Source: the human T2T-CHM13v2.0 reference genome, Homo sapiens. From it: a stretch of 64,000 nucleotides of DNA. The notes beneath the pieces are model-generated. The model had not been told where the DNA came from and ran no database searches. It worked only from the letters and a program-made list of their open reading frames with translations. Shown piece after piece: positions 27,808 to 38,670 of this stretch. The stretch is taken from assembly GCF_009914755.1 (NCBI RefSeq), contig NC_060936.1; one strand, given 5' to 3'. The stretch's first letter is position 1. Each line of letters starts with the position of its first letter. Both the position numbers and the translations under genes were made by a program.

Positions 27808-27959
27808 CTGCTCCTCTTTGTCATCAATCTTAATGAGACTAGAACCCAGATCTTGGCATGACTTCTTACTCTCATTCCAAGTTTTCTCTTCTTTTGAAAA
27901 ATAGTAACACTTTTCTCCATAGCAGGACAATTTTCCTTGACAGGAGGCACAGCCTTTTT
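27808..27959 (-). pseudogene. KLR-like pseudogene A, first C-type lectin domain exon (KLRH-like)
   Basis: ttttcaag|…|gtatgt splice sites; 152 bp, phase 1-0; open frame KGCASCQGKLSCYGEKCYYFSKEEKTWNESKKSCQDLGSSLIKIDDKEEQ with the NK-lectin Cys/CYYF/W pattern. Confidence 0.9.
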
Positions 27960-28744
27960 CTTGAAAACAAAAACAACCACCCACACTCCATCCCCAAGAC
28001 CATTTAGAGACATGTACACTTTACGTACTTCACTGCTTACTTCAGAATGAATTACCAGAAAATAGCATTCCCCTGTGTGCCAAAAGTCTGTATGTTGGAC
28101 ATAGCTCTTCTACCAAATTCTTCAGGGAAAAATACTGTTGAGCCAGACAGCCTCTGACAGACCCAAGGCCACTGTTAGGATTACATTCGGAAATCTTGAC
28201 TTCTCAAGTATAAACAAACTGCACCAATATGGAGAAGTTCTTCCTGCAGGAAGAAATCTACCAAAGTGAATATATGGCAATTATATTAATCCTAAGAGTT
28301 CTATATTGGGCAAACTTATTCACAAGCAAGTAAAATTTACTTACACAAGGAAGTAAAATTACTCAAATCAATATGACAATAGGGTCTTCTTTAGTGAAAT
28401 CAAGTGTTCAATTAAATATAATATAGAAAATAGATTTGATGAGAAAAAGCAAAATTAAAAGCCCTGCCAAAGATCAATGTAAAGTTTTATTGAAATGGTG
28501 CAGAAGGGTTTAATTCTATGGAAAAAAAATCTGTTTGCTATTAGCTTAAGTACTCAGTACATATTTGTACTAGATGGTAAAATGGAGTGATCTTTAACTC
28601 TAGAAAGAAGGTTTTTTTTTTCTTTTTTCTCTTCTATATCTTGTGTTTTACATTTAAAGGAGCTCTGCAAAACTTTATATTATAAAGTTAATATCATGAA
28701 TGGGTTTAATGGAAAATCATTTCATTATCATCATTTACTGAATT

Positions 28745-28872
28745 ATTTTTATTGAATAGATGAGGTTTCACCATGTTGCCCAGGCTGGTCTCAAACTCCT
28801 GGGCTCAAGTGATCTACCTGCATTAACCTCTTCAAGTGCTGGGATTACAGGCATGAGCTACCGCACCTGGCA
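28745..28872 (-). mobile_element. Alu left monomer (FLAM-like)
   Basis: gtttcaccatgttgcccaggctggtctcaaactcctgggctcaagtgatc…ggattacaggcatgagc. Confidence 0.88.
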
Positions 28873-31148
28873 TTTACTGAAATTCTAAAGAACAAAGTGA
28901 ATGATGTTGATGAAGTGGAAGTACAGTCTGGGAAAAACATAAAATATTTTGAAGTGTCAGAACATAAAATGAATTTTTAAATAAAACCATTTATAAATTA
29001 TATTTTTCAGTATATAAAACTAATTATTTATAAAACAAAAGATATAAACTGGAAATTTAAAGAATTCAGCTGGCTTTTACTCCATCTTCAAACAATTATT
29101 TCAAAGTTGTGATTAATATTTGCATTTAAAGGGATTTGTCTCTATGTTTAAGTTTATAATGGATTCATTGAAAGCACATGAGGAAAGAGCTTATACAGCT
29201 ACTTCTAATGTGCAAAAGGAAAGTTAAGATTCCTTGAAAGAAATAGCAATTTCTTCCAAAAAGTCAAGAATAAAAAATGTAAAAGCACAGTCTATGGCTC
29301 TGTTAAAAAAAATTCATCAGAGATTTCCTACACAAAGAGTTTTTATTTACAATTCTGCCTCTATTCACCATTGTTCATTCAACTTCGATTCTACTTGTAA
29401 AAATAAACCAACATCAATTGCATAATCTCTTAACGTTCCCAATTATAACAAATGGAGCTATTGTTCCATTCAGCAATCCACTCCAATATCTATATTCTAG
29501 ACCTGAAATTAAAAGACAAATGAAAGACATCTGGTTTCTAAAAACTGCTATTTCCTTATAACTAATCAATTATCTTCTCCTTTCCTTATCGCCCGCTCAA
29601 GTCCACATAGTGCAGCACTTTATAATTTTGGCAGGACATCTAACAATCTTGCACCGTAGTCTTTATGCAATGAATATTTGTCATCTAAAAACAGTCAGCT
29701 CTGGAACATTCTATCACTCACCATCTCATCTTCACAAGAGCATCTGAAGGCCAGCTGGCAAAAAAATCACAAAACTGTACAGATGCAGATTAATGCAGCT
29801 CCAAATTGATGGTTTTTATAATCATTTAGCCCCTCAACAGTATACAACCTACTTATTGTATCACTCCTTTTTCTCAATTCAACAGATATTTCTATTATTT
29901 AATATTTTTCTAAATTATCTACTAGACCTCCTTGACTGTCCTTTTCAGAAAATGCCCTCATCTGCTACTTGACATAGAAATAGTGACCATCAGGCATAAA
30001 TTCCCTCATCTTCTTGCTTGTCCTCCAACAAATACACTGGTACCCATCCATCTATCTCAGAAAAAAAATTTATCTTCCCACTGAAAAACTCCAAAATTTC
30101 CATCCCTAGTGTGGATATCACCCCCTGTTATGTCCTAAAGAATCATCATCTCTAGCTATTCCACTTCTATTATCATTTTTCCTCTAACATTTTCCCTCCA
30201 ATGTTTCTCTTCTCTTGTATATAATAATCTCAAGCCACTCTTGCTTCCCAGATTTCTATTATTTCTTTTTCCTGCTCTTTAAAACAGAGTTGTCTCTTTT
30301 TAATTTTTAGACCTTGAGGTGCCCGATAGGATTATTCACAATATTTCATTCATAAGACGCTTTTATCATTGCTCCAAGAACTTCTGTTTATTTATTTAGT
30401 TACTCACTTTGTTAGTTGTAACCCAAAACTATAGCTAGGACCATAACCATTACATTTATCTACTTGTATATTTCACTCCTTCCCGTCCTCCTACCTCATT
30501 CAAAAATGTAACTATCATACCGAATCCTATGTGATGAATTCCCTTGATTTATTTTATACATACTTTATTGCTTTGTTATTCCTTAAAATTATTTTTTGTT
30601 TTTAATGTTTTAACTTTATAAAATTGTATGACATTGTACAGAAAATTTGGTTTTTATTTTCACCTCATATTGTCATGCTCCTCTGGGAGAATCAAGGAGG
30701 TGAAGTAGATAATTTACGTAAATATTATCCTACCCCTCCTCTGCTACTTCACATAAAACTAGTGGCTATCAGGCATAAATCCCCTCACCTTCTTGCTTAT
30801 TTATACTAGGGCTGAAATCAACACTGGGGTGGGAGTTTCAGCCTTGTTCAGTGGGAAGAGAAATTTTTTTCTGAGACAGATGGATGGGTCCCTGTGTATT
30901 TGTTGGAGGATTTGCAATCATTATCCCATTAATGGTTATTTGGATAGTTTCGAGATGTTTCAAATTGTTAACAGCACTGCTGTAAATATTCCTGTAAATT
31001 TGCATTGTTGTACTTATGCAAATATTTCTCTTGGATATGTAGTTAGAATTCCTGAGCCATGTTCAGCTTTAGAAGATAAAATCAAACTGTTTCCCAAAGT
31101 GGTTGTATCAATTTATATTTCCTTTAATAACATATAAGAATCATATAA

Positions 31149-31452
31149 GGCCGGGCACAGTGGCTCACGCCTGTAATCCCAGCAATTTGGGAGGCTGAGG
31201 CGGGTGGATCATTTGAGGTCAGGAGTTCAAGACCAGCCTGACCAACATGGTGAAACCCCATCTCTACTAAAAATACAAAAATTAGCTGGGCATGGTGGCG
31301 TATGCCTGTAGTCCCAACTACTTGGGAGGCTGAGACAGGAGAATCACTTGAACCTGGGAGGTGGAGGTTGCATTAAGCTGAGATAGTCCCATGGCACTCC
31401 AGCCTGGGTGACAGAGCGAGACTCCATCTCAAAAAAGATAAATAAATAAAAG
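31149..31452 (+). mobile_element. AluSx-like
   Basis: Full dimer; TSD aagaatcat(a/g)ta. Confidence 0.95.
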
Positions 31453-36900: not shown

Positions 36901-37950
36901 GCAACAAAAGCCAAAATTGACAAATGGGATCTCATTAAACTAAAGAGCTTCTGTACAGCAAAAGAAACTACCATCAGAGTGAACAGGCAACCTACAAAAT
37001 GGGAGAAAATTTTTGCAATCTACTCATCTGACAAAGGGCTAATATCCAGAATCTACAATGAACTCAAACAAATTTACAGGAAAAAAACGAACAACCCCAT
37101 CAAAAAGTGGGCAAAGGACATGAACAGACACTTCTCAAAAGAAGACATTTATGCAGCCAAAAAACACATGAAAAAATGCTCACCATCACTGGCCTTCAGA
37201 GAAATGCAAATCAAAACCACAATGAGATACCATTTCACACCAGTTAGAATGGCAATCATTAAAAAGTCAGGAAACAACAGGTGCTGGAGAGGATGTGGAG
37301 AAATAGGAACACTTTTACACTGTTGGTGGGACTGTAAACTAGTTCAACCATTGTGGAAGTCAGTGTGGCAATGCCTCAGGGATCTAGAACTAGAAATACC
37401 ATTTGACCCAGCCATCCCATTACTGGGTATATACCCAAAGGACTATAAATCATGCTGCTATAAAGACACATGCACACGTATGTTTATTGTGGCACTATTC
37501 ACAATAGCAAAGACTTGGAACCAACCCAAATGTCCAACAATGATAGACTGGATTAAGAAAATGTGGCACATATACACCATGGAATACTATGCAGCCATAA
37601 AAAATGAAGAGTTCATGTCCTTTGTAGGGACATGGATGAAATTGGAAATCATCATTCTCAGTAAACTATCACAAGGACAAAAAACCAAACACCGCATGTT
37701 CTCACTCATAGGTGGGAATTGAACAATGAGAACACATGGACACAGGAAGGGGAACATCACACTCTGGGGACTGTTGTGGGGTGGGGGGAGGGTGGAGGGA
37801 TAGCATTAGGAGATATACCTAATGCTAAATGACAAGTTAATGGGTGCAGCACACCAGCATGGCACATGTATACATATGTAACTAACCTGCACATTGTGCA
37901 CATGTACCCTAAAACTTAAAGTATAATAATAATAAAATAAAATTTAAGAA
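33973..37950. mobile_element. 5'-truncated, 5'-inverted L1 (L1PA3-like): antisense segment ~33969-36032, sense segment ~36033-37950
   Basis: Minus-strand ORF2 EN/RT ORFs (33917-35947); plus-strand ORF2 C-terminal half (36289-37722); 3'UTR and A-tail; TSD aaggagatatgcaa at 33959-33972 and 37951-37964. Confidence 0.95.
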
Positions 37951-38058
37951 AAGGAGATATGCAATATCAAATATATATGAACATAATTATGATTTCATTT
38001 TTTTCTTACTTGACAATATATTTTCAGAAAACAAGAAAATAAACAAAAAACAGTTTAC

Positions 38059-38155
38059 CTTTACTTTTGTGAGCTGAACGTCTTCCGTTCTTTCATTTTG
38101 AAAAGGGGAATTTTGTCTCTGTGTATGTCACTCTCTCCTCACTCATATCTGAGGG
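38059..38155 (-). pseudogene. KLR-like pseudogene A, first coding (cytoplasmic ITIM-type) exon with a nonsense codon
   Basis: ctttgactgcag acceptor; ATG at 38146; MSEERVTYTETKFPFSK*KNGRRSAHKSK; AG|gtaaac donor in phase 1; VTYxx motif typical of inhibitory KLRs. Confidence 0.75.
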
Positions 38156-38571
38156 CTGCAGTCAAAGAACACAGCAAGAATCCTTTCGAACAGCATAATT
38201 CTTCAGTTGAAATGGGAACATTCATCATGAAGGAATGGAGAGACCTCAATAAGTAATAAGCATGATAGTCAAGAAAAAGTGAAATAAAGTAACCATTTGT
38301 CAGGGAATATCAGAAAATATGATTTTGTAGACTTCTCTTTGTGATGTTTTAGAACAGAGATCCTACATAGCTAAATAATAGTTTGTGACAGTGTACAGAC
38401 ATGTTATATTAGACTTTTAGGCTGTCTTTTAGGTAATTTAATTGCTTGCCAAAAGTTAGAAATTAATGTTTTACACACAAATATCCAGATGTATATCTTC
38501 TCTTGAAAATTGCATGTGAACATTTAGTGCCTGTATTAGTCCCAAGTGATAACCATATTATGATACTGAAT

Positions 38572-38670
38572 TGAGTCACCTTTAGCAAGGATACACGTTC
38601 TAATTCAACACAGTCTGCAATCTGCCAGATTATCTTATACCACACCCCATCACTTCCTGATCTTATCCAT
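38572..38670 (-). promoter_or_regulatory. Candidate promoter and non-coding first exon of KLR-like pseudogene A
   Basis: AAG|gtgact donor at 38580; AP-1 TGAGTCA at 38572-38578; RUNX ACCACA at 38639-38644; ETS ACTTCCTG at 38652-38659; GATA CTTATC at 38662-38667. Confidence 0.4.

What the first reader, a model, noticed from the sequence alone, without database searches (positions are those of the whole stretch)
27808..38670. Fossil inhibitory NK lectin receptor gene (KLRH-like) reconstructable exon by exon on the minus strand
Seen, in correct order and strand: a candidate non-coding exon ending at 38580; a cytoplasmic exon at 38155-38059 (MSEERVTYTETK…, degenerate ITIM, TGA at codon 18); a TM exon at 33800-33730 (G|AC joins in phase to give DFLWHTVAVTLGV, internally shortened, donor GT>AT); and a still-open 152-bp CTLD exon at 27959-27808 with intact splice sites, in which the conserved W has become L (KLSCYG). 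Established: KLR genes have this type-II exon architecture, the first CTLD exon of KLRC/KLRD/KLRK is 152 bp, and KLRH-type genes lie between KLRC and KLRA in several non-human mammals with no functional human gene. Inference: this is an orthologous or paralogous remnant of a lost primate NK receptor. I could not identify the stalk exon or the middle (WIGL) CTLD exon.
Basis: partly seen in the sequence, partly recalled or inferred. Interest (0 to 1): 0.85.

Follow-up and report, generated by a model that had tools for sequence, protein, structure and literature searches.

The report
Relic of lost KLRH receptor gene
Between KLRC1 and KLRA1P the human genome still holds the first five exons of a dead KLRH-type inhibitory natural-killer-cell receptor gene, which published comparisons list as deleted or absent in humans.

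Summary
The main observation holds. On the minus strand, in gene order, lie a cytoplasmic exon (38155-38059; MSEERVTY start, stop at codon 18, ITIM position reads VTYTET), a transmembrane exon (from 33800) and an open 152-bp first lectin-domain exon (27959-27808). I add two exons. The other is the true first exon (about 45853-45697, GT donor intact). The second and third lectin exons are absent downstream.

All five exons match one family of full-length mammalian proteins. The lectin exon is 64-88% identical to the better matches, against at most 53% to any human paralogue. The family includes hamster KLRH1 and the carnivore proteins that fit the published description of KLRH.

It is a unitary pseudogene. 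Its lesions are a nonsense codon, a lost ITIM, a garbled transmembrane exon, a non-GT stalk donor and two missing exons. Its cytoplasmic exon now serves as an exon of lncRNA LOC105369657.

Topology tests could not separate KLRH from KLRA, and no KLRJ reference sequence was available. Papers I read say KLRH is absent or deleted in humans. RefSeq annotates no pseudogene here. This is modest novelty.

The parts
45697..45853 (-). Homologue of exon 1 of the orthologues (5' exon; read as an N-terminal extension in some public models). It carries one in-frame stop. The GT donor at 45696-45695 is intact.
   Evidence: All 6 N-terminal queries (deer P0006, manatee P0062, seals P0004 and P0092, leopard P0021, mole P0057) hit here, with E from 1.6e-12 to 0.003. 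In the manatee model the exon ends at the same place as the human GT. The block is single-copy in the genome.
38059..38155 (-). Exon 2, cytoplasmic tail. ATG at 38146. The ITIM position 38131-38114 reads VTYTET (the horse has VTYTEL). TGA at codon 18 (38095-38093). The GT donor is intact.
   Evidence: tblastn: horse P0005 residues 1-31, 55% identity, E 6.6e-6; pig P0013, E 1.1e-7. Profile score 9.0 bits, or 10.7 with the stop read as X, against controls of 5.3 and 2.5. The seal model P0004 joins its upstream exon at the acceptor equivalent to 38155.
38059..38200 (-). Exon of lncRNA LOC105369657 that contains all of relic exon 2 and uses its donor.
   Evidence: All three Gnomon models (XR_007082806-8) carry this exon (annotation supplied with the finding). 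An AG precedes 38200.
33706..33800 (-). Exon 3, transmembrane. The first 13 codons (33800-33763, plus the split codon) are conserved. The rest is garbled: the frame as read holds H, Q and D and runs into TGA. The 3' end given here is approximate.
   Evidence: Sea lion P0009 residues 31-43, 69% identity. Pig P0014, E 6.6e-10, including intron flank. Another frame reads LAFAGLRYMH against LAIAGLGYMY in manatee, which suggests a frameshift and a 9-nt loss; this is inferred. Profile score alone is 5.7 bits, at noise level.
28565..28664 (-). Exon 4, stalk. 100 nt, open, with acceptor ttgcag. The inferred donor position reads AT (atatgt). The nearest GT, 4 nt further on, would break the frame into exon 5.
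   Evidence: Rhino P0061 residues 4-40, 57% identity, E 3.4e-8. Rabbit P0023, E 1.7e-5. Profile score 16.0 bits against a control of 5.3. The exon end is inferred from where the orthologue proteins pass into the lectin exon.
27808..27959 (-). Exon 5, first lectin-domain exon. 152 nt, 50 open codons, AG and GT intact. W is replaced by L at 27930-27928.
   Evidence: PDB best matches NKG2D, Ly49 and NKG2A. It is the top hit in the whole genome for the orthologue profile, E 1.5e-20. Identity 88% to muntjac, 80% to horse and red deer, 64% to hamster KLRH1.
60304..60431 (-). Orphan last-lectin-exon relic (pyrimidine tract plus AG, then a C...C...FICER pattern). It is NOT part of the KLRH relic: it lies 14 kb 5' of exon 1 and is only about 36% identical to KLRH proteins.
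   Evidence: Profile score 20.3 bits against a control of 5.3. Best identity 12 of 33. PDB matches are weak, E 0.17. Single-copy.

Best explanation
This is the unprocessed, unitary remnant of a KLRH-type gene.

What the intact gene was. In rodents, carnivores, horses, bats and others the gene is intact. It encodes a type II membrane protein of about 222 residues. It has a Ly49-like cytoplasmic start carrying an ITIM, one membrane span, a short stalk and one C-type lectin-like domain. Papers I read cite rat KLRH1 as an inhibitory receptor for MHC class I.

What remains in humans. Exons 1 to 5 of 7 survive in their original order and orientation between KLRC1 and KLRA1P. The locus cannot make a receptor, for these reasons:
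- Codon 18 is a stop.
- The ITIM leucine is lost.
- The second half of the membrane-span exon is out of register.
- The stalk exon has no GT at its donor position.
- The two exons encoding the rest of the lectin domain are gone, most likely by deletion (inferred).

What it does today. The only activity seen in the annotation is that exon 2, with its splice donor, is used as an exon of lncRNA LOC105369657.

Shown: the exons, their order and the lesions that the sequence displays directly. Inferred: the ancestral exon ends, the frameshift, and deletion as the cause of the missing exons.
For: - Collinear matches of five exons to single proteins. Profile scores are above the reversed-sequence controls for the lectin, stalk and cytoplasmic exons.
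- The orthologue profile finds this lectin exon as its best hit in the whole human genome: 83.7 bits, against 47 for KLRA1P.
- Lectin-exon identity is 64-88% to the better-matching family members among 80 proteins compared (overall range 44-88%), and at most 53% to human paralogues.
- A starred branch (99/93) puts it with 74 family proteins and KLRA1P. It excludes KLRC1, KLRC3, KLRD1, KLRK1, KLRG1, KLRE-like proteins and CLECs. The full-length tree gives a 95/90 clade with subclades that follow the mammalian orders.
- The stalk exon is 100 nt, matching 33 residues in the orthologues. The KLRA1P stalk exon is 237 nt.
- The seal protein P0004 carries both the MSEERV start with an intact ITIM and the lectin exon, so the two belong to one gene.
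- Map position and strand agree.
- The carnivore subclades match the two KLRH lineages that Futas 2024 describes in Caniformia. The taxa in the family match the list of KLRH-bearing orders in the 2026 GBE paper.
Against: - AU tests do not reject the relic being sister to KLRA-like rows: p 0.55 on 50 columns, p 0.39 on 222 columns.
- No true KLRJ or KLRI sequence could be fetched. The one row named KLRI1 (P0086) is a horse paralogue of this same family.
- Only 1 of the 120 listed proteins is named KLRH1. The other names are automatic and inconsistent.
- Schwartz 2017 describes KLRH outside rodents, mouse lemur included, as inverted relative to KLRA and lacking N-terminal exons, and reports none in human. 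The relic has the KLRA orientation and does have those exons.
- The membrane-span exon is at noise level on the profile alone.
- No orthologue DNA was available, so the donor change, the frameshift and the deletion rest on protein alignments.
Confidence: 0.82

Rival explanations
1. It is the relic of KLRJ. The literature describes KLRJ as a KLRA-like gene in the KLRA orientation, lying between KLRA and KLRI/KLRC, whose tail has no signalling motif.
For: - Orientation and rough position fit the description of KLRJ in Schwartz 2017.
- The artiodactyl members of the matching family (buffalo P0007, deer P0006, pig P0013) read VIYMEP or VIYVEP at the ITIM position, so they have no ITIM, as reported for KLRJ.
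- Schwartz says pig KLRH lacks the first three exons, yet pig P0013 has them.
Against: - The family includes rodent proteins, one of them named KLRH1. Schwartz found no KLRJ in rat.
- The 2026 GBE paper treats KLRJ as a separate subfamily that reaches marsupials and monotremes. The artiodactyl rows sit on short branches among the other orders.
- Horse P0005 is 61% identical both to buffalo P0007 and to raccoon dog P0008, as expected of one orthologous family.
- Schwartz reports that their tools failed to predict the N-terminal part upstream of goat KLRH1.
Confidence: 0.08
2. It is the relic of a second KLRA (Ly49) gene, that is, an old duplicate of KLRA1P.
For: - KLRA1P is the closest human paralogue of the lectin exon, at 53%.
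- AU tests do not reject a clade of the relic with KLRA rows.
- Family members carry the Pfam Ly49 N-terminal domain PF08391.
Against: - Identity to KLRA-type rows is 46-53%, against 64-88% to the better-matching KLRH-type rows.
- The stalk exon is 100 nt, against 237 nt in KLRA1P. The shrew KLRA-like protein has a much longer stalk.
- The exon 1 block is unique in the genome and has no match upstream of KLRA1P.
- The KLRA rows sit on very long branches, which makes any join with them cheap.
Confidence: 0.05
3. Part of it is still under selection. On this reading the open, near-consensus lectin exon with intact splice sites is used by an unannotated transcript or small protein.
For: - The exon is open, with AG and GT intact.
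- Its end branch on the lectin-exon tree is 0.11, equal to the median of living genes.
- It is 76% identical to horse, against 57-65% for living beaver, rabbit, pika, hamster and tree shrew.
Against: - No RefSeq transcript includes it. The lncRNA skips from 38059 to 18015.
- The upstream exons cannot deliver a reading frame to it.
- Two thirds of the lectin domain are missing.
- The slow human substitution rate (my own knowledge), together with the near-neutral evolution of KLRH1 reported in the GBE paper (omega 1.18), explains the similarity without selection.
Confidence: 0.04
4. It is a chance assemblage of unrelated lectin-like fragments or repeats.
For: The membrane-span exon scores at noise level on the profile alone.
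Against: - Five pieces lie on one strand in gene order, each matching the right part of the same proteins, with E down to 1e-20.
- None lies in a masked repeat.
- The exon 1 block and the lectin exon have no other copy in the genome: no other DNA match for exon 1 and no paralogue above 53% for the lectin exon.
Confidence: 0.01

Closest known systems
Rodent KLRH1 (rat and mouse Klrh1; here hamster P0043, named KLRH1 by UniRef)
   Same: - Same exon plan: MSEER start, ITIM position, short stalk, one lectin domain.
- Same strand as KLRA, on the KLRA side of KLRC.
- The lectin exon is 64% identical.
   Different: The rodent gene is intact and, according to the papers read, inhibitory and MHC class I-binding. 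The human copy is broken and lacks two exons. The human relic is closer to horse than the hamster protein is: 76% against 65% in the lectin exon.
Carnivore KLRH (Futas et al. 2024), for example sea lion P0009 and raccoon dog P0008
   Same: All five exons align. The sea lion protein starts with the same eight residues and has the ITIM. The paper calls carnivore KLRH fully homologous to mouse Klrh1.
   Different: The carnivore genes are intact and have expanded into several copies, some activating. That these rows are the paper's KLRH is inferred from the clade pattern. It is not taken from accession numbers, because the supplements are closed.
Human KLRA1P (LY49L), the known Ly49 pseudogene 70 kb away
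   Same: A dead NK lectin receptor gene of the same superclade, on the same strand, and transcribed. It has also lost the W of the first lectin exon.
   Different: KLRA1P keeps all seven exons, has a 237-nt stalk exon and is annotated. The relic keeps five exons, has a 100-nt stalk exon and is not annotated as a pseudogene in RefSeq.
Vestigial KLRH-like exons of cattle, goat, pig and camel
   Same: KLRH remnants left in place in the NK complex are already described in other mammals.
   Different: Those remnants are lectin-domain exons of about 150 bp, or genes lacking the N-terminal exons. The human relic keeps the N-terminal exons and lacks the last two lectin exons.

Membership tests
[quoted passage not shown] | Exon plan: cytoplasmic, transmembrane, stalk, then three lectin-domain exons, in that order on one strand | tested here: met
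   The 5' exon, cytoplasmic, transmembrane, stalk and first lectin exons are in order on the minus strand. The last two lectin exons are absent, as can happen in a relic.
[quoted passage not shown] | First lectin exon of 152 bp in phase 1-0 with the CYYF...W...C pattern | tested here: met
   The exon is 152 bp, as in KLRC1, KLRD1, KLRK1 and CLEC7A. PDB matches to NKG2D, Ly49 and NKG2A reach E 1e-9 or better. Pfam Lectin_C scores 20.1 bits, under its 22.6 cut-off, because only a third of the domain is present.
KLRH | Closest in sequence to KLRH proteins, and more distant from other subfamilies | tested here: met
   Identity is 64% to hamster KLRH1 and 63-88% to horse, deer, carnivore, bat, shrew, elephant and beaver members. 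It is at most 53% to KLRA1P and at most 49% to other human paralogues. The family profile's best hit in the whole genome is this exon.
KLRH | Forms one clade with KLRH to the exclusion of KLRA | tested here: inconclusive
   A starred clade holds the relic, the KLRH-type rows and the KLRA rows together. AU tests do not reject relic plus KLRA: p 0.55 and 0.39.
KLRH | Short stalk (one exon of about 100 nt), unlike the long KLRA stalk | tested here: met
   The relic's stalk exon is 100 nt. The family has 33 residues there. The KLRA1P stalk exon is 237 nt, and the shrew KLRA-like stalk is far longer.
KLRH | Cytoplasmic ITIM (I/V/L-x-Y-x-x-I/V/L), as in inhibitory KLRH | tested here: not met
   The motif position is kept but reads VTYTET, and a stop follows at codon 18. 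Horse, sea lion, badger, fur seal, a bat (P0016) and pika members have a canonical motif there. This is a lesion of the relic, not evidence for another family.
KLRH | Map position between the KLRC and KLRA genes | tested here: met
   The order is KLRC1, then the relic, then KLRA1P, all on the minus strand. The orientation matches rodent KLRH but not the inverted KLRH that Schwartz 2017 reports for lemur and Laurasiatheria.
KLRH | Binds MHC class I and inhibits NK cells | not testable with these tools
   Known only from rat work cited in the papers read. The human locus cannot encode a protein.
KLRJ | Sequence kinship with cattle or dog KLRJ1 | not testable with these tools
The indirect argument against is that rodent KLRH1 is in the relic's family while the rat lacks KLRJ.
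KLRC / KLRD / KLRK / KLRE | Groups with these subfamilies on a tree of the first lectin exon | tested here: not met
   A starred branch (99/93) separates the relic's clade from human KLRC1, KLRC3, KLRD1 and KLRK1, from kangaroo rat NKG2D and from deer and goat KLRE-like rows.
Unitary (unprocessed) pseudogene | Introns kept, disabling lesions present, no working paralogue in the same genome | tested here: met
   Introns of 0.6 to 7.5 kb are kept. Lesions are a nonsense codon, a lost donor, a garbled exon and missing exons. The best human paralogue is KLRA1P at 53%.

The most novel reading that the evidence does not exclude
The relic shows that a full-length, ITIM-bearing KLRH in the KLRA orientation was still present on the primate stem lineage. 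That contradicts the published model in two ways. In that model KLRH was inverted and lost its N-terminal exons before Laurasiatheria and Euarchontoglires split, and the rodent form arose by later recombination with KLRA. In that model humans also simply deleted the gene. Because the retained exons are unusually close to the consensus, the gene may have died late. Some living primates might then still carry an intact KLRH-type inhibitory MHC class I receptor that no one has catalogued.
Probability: 0.25. Interest if true: 0.55.

Novelty: new member of a known kind. Interest (0 to 1): 0.4.

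Why it matters
Humans are the textbook case of a species that uses KIR, not lectin-type receptors, to survey classical MHC class I. KLRA1P is usually cited as the only trace of the other system.

A second, different relic (KLRH) in the same interval refines the history of the NK complex. It replaces 'deleted' with 'decayed in place'. 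It fixes the ancestral position, strand and exon plan of KLRH in the primate lineage. It also gives a slowly evolving reference sequence for dating the loss across primates.

It explains where one exon of lncRNA LOC105369657 came from. The practical consequence is small: a missing pseudogene annotation.

Tried and rejected
- The exon ending at 38580 is rejected. No protein match appears there, and exon 1 maps to 45.7-45.85 kb.
- The two missing lectin exons were sought with tblastn (120 proteins), with a full profile, with a profile of the last two exons only, and with stops read as X. Coverage was the window plus 84 kb of flanks, that is, the 148-kb stretch from the end of KLRC1 through KLRA1P. 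Downstream of 27808 nothing exceeds the reversed-sequence controls.
- The lectin-like hit at 60310-60417 is real but only about 36% identical to the family, and it lies 5' of exon 1. I reject it as part of this gene.
- The hit at 17298-17384 scores 5.0 bits against a control of 2.5. It overlaps the pyrimidine tract and AG of a lncRNA exon and has a stop. I treat it as probably chance.
- Dating the loss from amino-acid divergence is rejected. Living Glires genes are more diverged from horse than the relic is, and the GBE paper reports omega near 1 for KLRH1.
- Tree-based separation from KLRA failed.
- Literature. Searches and the passages read found no description of a human KLRH relic. Three papers state absence or deletion. 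In Zhang 2010 none of four NK-lectin terms (Klr, killer cell lectin, Ly49, natural killer) occurred. In Averdam 2009 KLRH and KLRJ did not occur.
- Hao et al. 2006 (PNAS) is not held. Its figures could bear on prior knowledge, as could the closed supplements of Schwartz 2017 (Fig. S2, Table S2), Futas 2024 and the GBE paper (Table S5). GENCODE could not be consulted.

Full report
WHAT IS THERE

- Cytoplasmic exon. It has an AG acceptor before 38155 and an ATG at 38146. The first eight residues are MSEERVTY. The ITIM position reads VTYTET. There is a TGA at codon 18 and a GT donor after 38059.
- Transmembrane exon. It opens after an AG at 33800. The split codon G|AC gives D, followed by FLWHTVAVTLGV.
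- Lectin exon 27959-27808. It is 152 bp, open for 50 codons, and flanked by AG and GT. It has L where W is usual.

None of these lies in a masked repeat. The 152-bp length equals that of the first lectin exon of KLRC1, KLRD1, KLRK1 and CLEC7A in RefSeq.

FINDING RELATIVES

The 50-residue translation matches solved NKG2D, Ly49 and NKG2A lectin domains, with E 1e-9 or better. In the human genome its best paralogue is the same exon of KLRA1P, at only 53% identity. All others are at most 49% (48 matches listed). So it is not a young duplicate.

The protein word search sees only proteins of similar length, so I climbed in three steps.

1. The open frame around the exon gave 2 of 2 scored candidates: elephant at 78% and muntjac at 88%.
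2. The muntjac protein gave 3 of 3. One of these was an elephant-seal fragment, P0004. It carries both an MSEERV start with an intact ITIM and the lectin exon.
3. An alignment of these gave 242 proteins at E <= 0.001 among 359 scored candidates. The best 120 are listed. A further 2198 candidates known only from samples were left out before scoring.

None of the 120 listed proteins is from a primate.

EXON-BY-EXON MATCH

tblastn of all 120 proteins against the window, and detailed runs with seven of them, give collinear minus-strand matches to single full-length proteins. For horse P0005 (222 residues) the matches are:

| Horse residues | Window position | Note |
|---|---|---|
| 1-31 | 38146-38054 | |
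| 52-94 | 28694-28566 | |
| 100-146 | 27945-27805 | 79% identity, E 4.6e-21 |

Sea lion P0009 adds residues 31-43 at 33801-33763.

It is 100 nt, has an AG acceptor, and is open. Its best match is rhino P0061, E 3.4e-8.

At the place where the orthologue proteins pass into the lectin exon, the intron begins AT and not GT. The nearest GT lies 4 nt further on and would break the frame. The exon end is inferred from protein alignments.

THE TRUE FIRST EXON

Several public models begin with an extra N-terminal stretch encoded by an upstream exon. These are deer P0006, manatee P0062, seals P0004 and P0092, leopard P0021 and mole P0057. All 6 of 6 such stretches match 45853-45697, with E from 1.6e-12 to 0.003.

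The human block ends with an intact GT exactly where the manatee model splices. It is single-copy in the genome.

THE TRANSMEMBRANE EXON

Only the first 13 codons are conserved. After them the frame as read contains H, Q and D and runs into a stop.

A second frame reads a stretch that matches the orthologues' LAIAGLGYMY at 7 of 10 positions, after a three-residue gap. I infer a frameshift plus a 9-nt loss. An in-frame alignment ending in YTYF competes with this reading, and I cannot fix the exon end or its donor.

On the family profile alone this exon scores 5.7 bits, which is within noise. However, pig P0014, whose model reads through the preceding intron, matches 33763-33900 at E 6.6e-10. 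This shows orthology of the exon with its flank.

CONTROLS AND THE MISSING EXONS

A profile of 14 full-length family members (alignment A2) was run on six-frame translations of the window.

| Piece | Score (bits) |
|---|---|
| Lectin exon | 87.8 |
| Hit at 60310-60417 | 20.3 |
| Stalk | 16.0 |
| Cytoplasmic | 9.0 |
| Best on the reversed window | 5.3 |

Over the 148 kb from the end of KLRC1 through KLRA1P, the only further hits above the control (7.4 bits) are four KLRA1P exons.

With stops read as X the picture is the same. A profile of the last two lectin exons finds only 60310-60417, at 20.7 bits. The next real hit scores 4.1 and the control maximum is 3.1.

So the WIGL exon and the last exon are not downstream of 27808. 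The first lectin exon is almost undamaged. Loss by deletion is therefore more likely than decay, but this is inference. The EIF2S3B retrogene (23306-25941, plus strand) now lies in the stretch where they would be expected.

WHICH SUBFAMILY

On the first lectin exon I built a tree of 91 rows: the relic, 10 human paralogue exons and 80 proteins. I gave the script 83 of the 120 proteins, leaving out mostly non-mammalian ones. Three were dropped for covering fewer than 38 residues.

A starred branch (99/93) unites the relic with 74 family proteins and KLRA1P. It excludes KLRC1, KLRC3, KLRD1, KLRK1, KLRG1, the KLRE-like rows, NKG2D and the CLECs.

A tree on 222 columns used the relic's five exon pieces, which were aligned separately and then merged. 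It gives a 95/90 clade of 47 rows, with subclades that follow the mammalian orders. That pattern is what one orthologous lineage with local expansions would produce.

The evidence that the family is KLRH is as follows.

- It contains hamster P0043, named KLRH1 by UniRef.
- Its carnivore part splits into two Caniformia lineages. One is kept by canids, both by otariids, and one is duplicated in phocids and bears. This is as Futas 2024 describes for KLRH (sections read).
- Its taxa are rodents, lagomorphs, tree shrew, perissodactyls, tethytherians and Eulipotyphla. They match the orders that the 2026 GBE paper lists for KLRH.
- Its stalk is short. The relic's stalk exon is 100 nt, against 237 nt in KLRA1P.

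EVIDENCE AGAINST AN OVER-FIRM LABEL

- AU tests do not reject the relic being sister to the KLRA rows. On 50 columns p is 0.55, and the constrained tree is even 0.61 log units better. On 222 columns p is 0.39. The KLRA rows sit on long branches.
- I had no true KLRJ or KLRI protein. The horse row named KLRI1 (P0086) shares its N-terminus with the horse family members and is a misnamed paralogue.
- The artiodactyl members lack a canonical ITIM, as is reported for KLRJ. I keep KLRJ as a rival at 0.08.
- Schwartz 2017 reports non-rodent KLRH as inverted and lacking N-terminal exons. The relic, and the full-length public models, do not fit that description. The same paper notes that its tools failed to predict the N-terminal part upstream of goat KLRH1.

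STATE OF PRESERVATION

In each retained exon the relic is as close to horse P0005 as living Euarchontoglires orthologues are, or closer.

| Exon | Relic vs horse | Living Euarchontoglires vs horse |
|---|---|---|
| Cytoplasmic | 17 of 28 | 4-16 of 27-28 |
| Lectin exon | 37 of 49 | 28-32 of 49 |

The living species compared were beaver, rabbit, pika, hamster and tree shrew. This fits a slow human lineage. It does not date the loss, because the GBE paper reports omega 1.18 for KLRH1.

WHAT IT DOES NOW

It does nothing as a receptor. All three Gnomon models of lncRNA LOC105369657 include exon 38059-38200. That exon contains all of relic exon 2 and uses its donor. The models then skip to 18015.

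WHAT IS KNOWN

- Passages of Schwartz 2017 (PMC5350243) say KLRJ was not found in human. [quoted passage not shown] They say both 'were deleted' in the human lineage.
- Table 1 of Futas 2024 gives 'Not applicable' for human KLRH.
- The GBE 2026 passages list no primate with KLRH.
- Kelley 2005, Flornes 2010, the camel and pig papers, two pseudogene surveys and Averdam 2009 add nothing on a human relic.
- RefSeq has no pseudogene here.
- Hao 2006, GENCODE and all supplements were out of reach.

VERDICT

This is a real, well-preserved, five-exon unitary relic of a KLRH-type inhibitory NK receptor gene. It is unannotated in RefSeq and contrary to published statements of deletion. It is ordinary in kind, being a pseudogene, but useful for the history of the NK complex. 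Interest 0.4.

Noticed in passing
window 60304-60431, minus strand: An orphan last exon of a C-type lectin-like domain: pyrimidine tract, AG, then a C...C...FICER pattern, with an open frame of 99 residues. It scores 20 bits on the KLRH profile but is only about 36% identical to KLRH proteins, and it is single-copy. It is probably the relic of another lost NK-complex gene (KLRJ, or an older KLRH or KLRA copy). No other exon of it was found up to KLRA1P.
   Followed up: partly
chr12:10,299,132-10,326,059 (outside the window): RefSeq on T2T-CHM13 lists KLRC4, KLRC3 and KLRC1 but no KLRC2. From my own knowledge, a KLRC2 deletion haplotype is common in people. CHM13 may carry it.
   Followed up: no
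window 17298-17384, minus strand: A weak second match to the first lectin exon (YYFS...LIKID, with a stop). It scores 5.0 bits against a control of 2.5. It overlaps the pyrimidine tract and AG acceptor of the last exon of LOC105369657, so it is probably chance.
   Followed up: partly
proteins P0086, P0005-P0033: Public names for this one family are inconsistent: CLEC7A-like, CD94-like, NKG2-D-like, YE1/48-like, CLEC9A-like, KLRF2, KLRG1. A horse protein named KLRI1 isoform X3 is a paralogue of the KLRH-type horse gene.
   Followed up: partly
protein P0002 (muntjac), against window 27928-27930: The muntjac model also has L instead of W at the same position (GKLSCYG), whereas red deer has W. This could be a parallel change or an artefact of the model. 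The same exon of human KLRA1P has G there.
   Followed up: no
window 23306-25941 and 40020-40552, plus strand: The EIF2S3B retrogene sits 1.9 kb downstream of the relic's last retained exon, where the missing lectin exons would be expected. The second exon of its alternative transcript overlaps, in antisense, exon 40076-40344 of LOC105369657, within the relic's first intron.
   Followed up: no
window 33966-37956: A masked repeat of 4 kb fills most of the relic's intron between the cytoplasmic and transmembrane exons. I did not identify its family.
   Followed up: no
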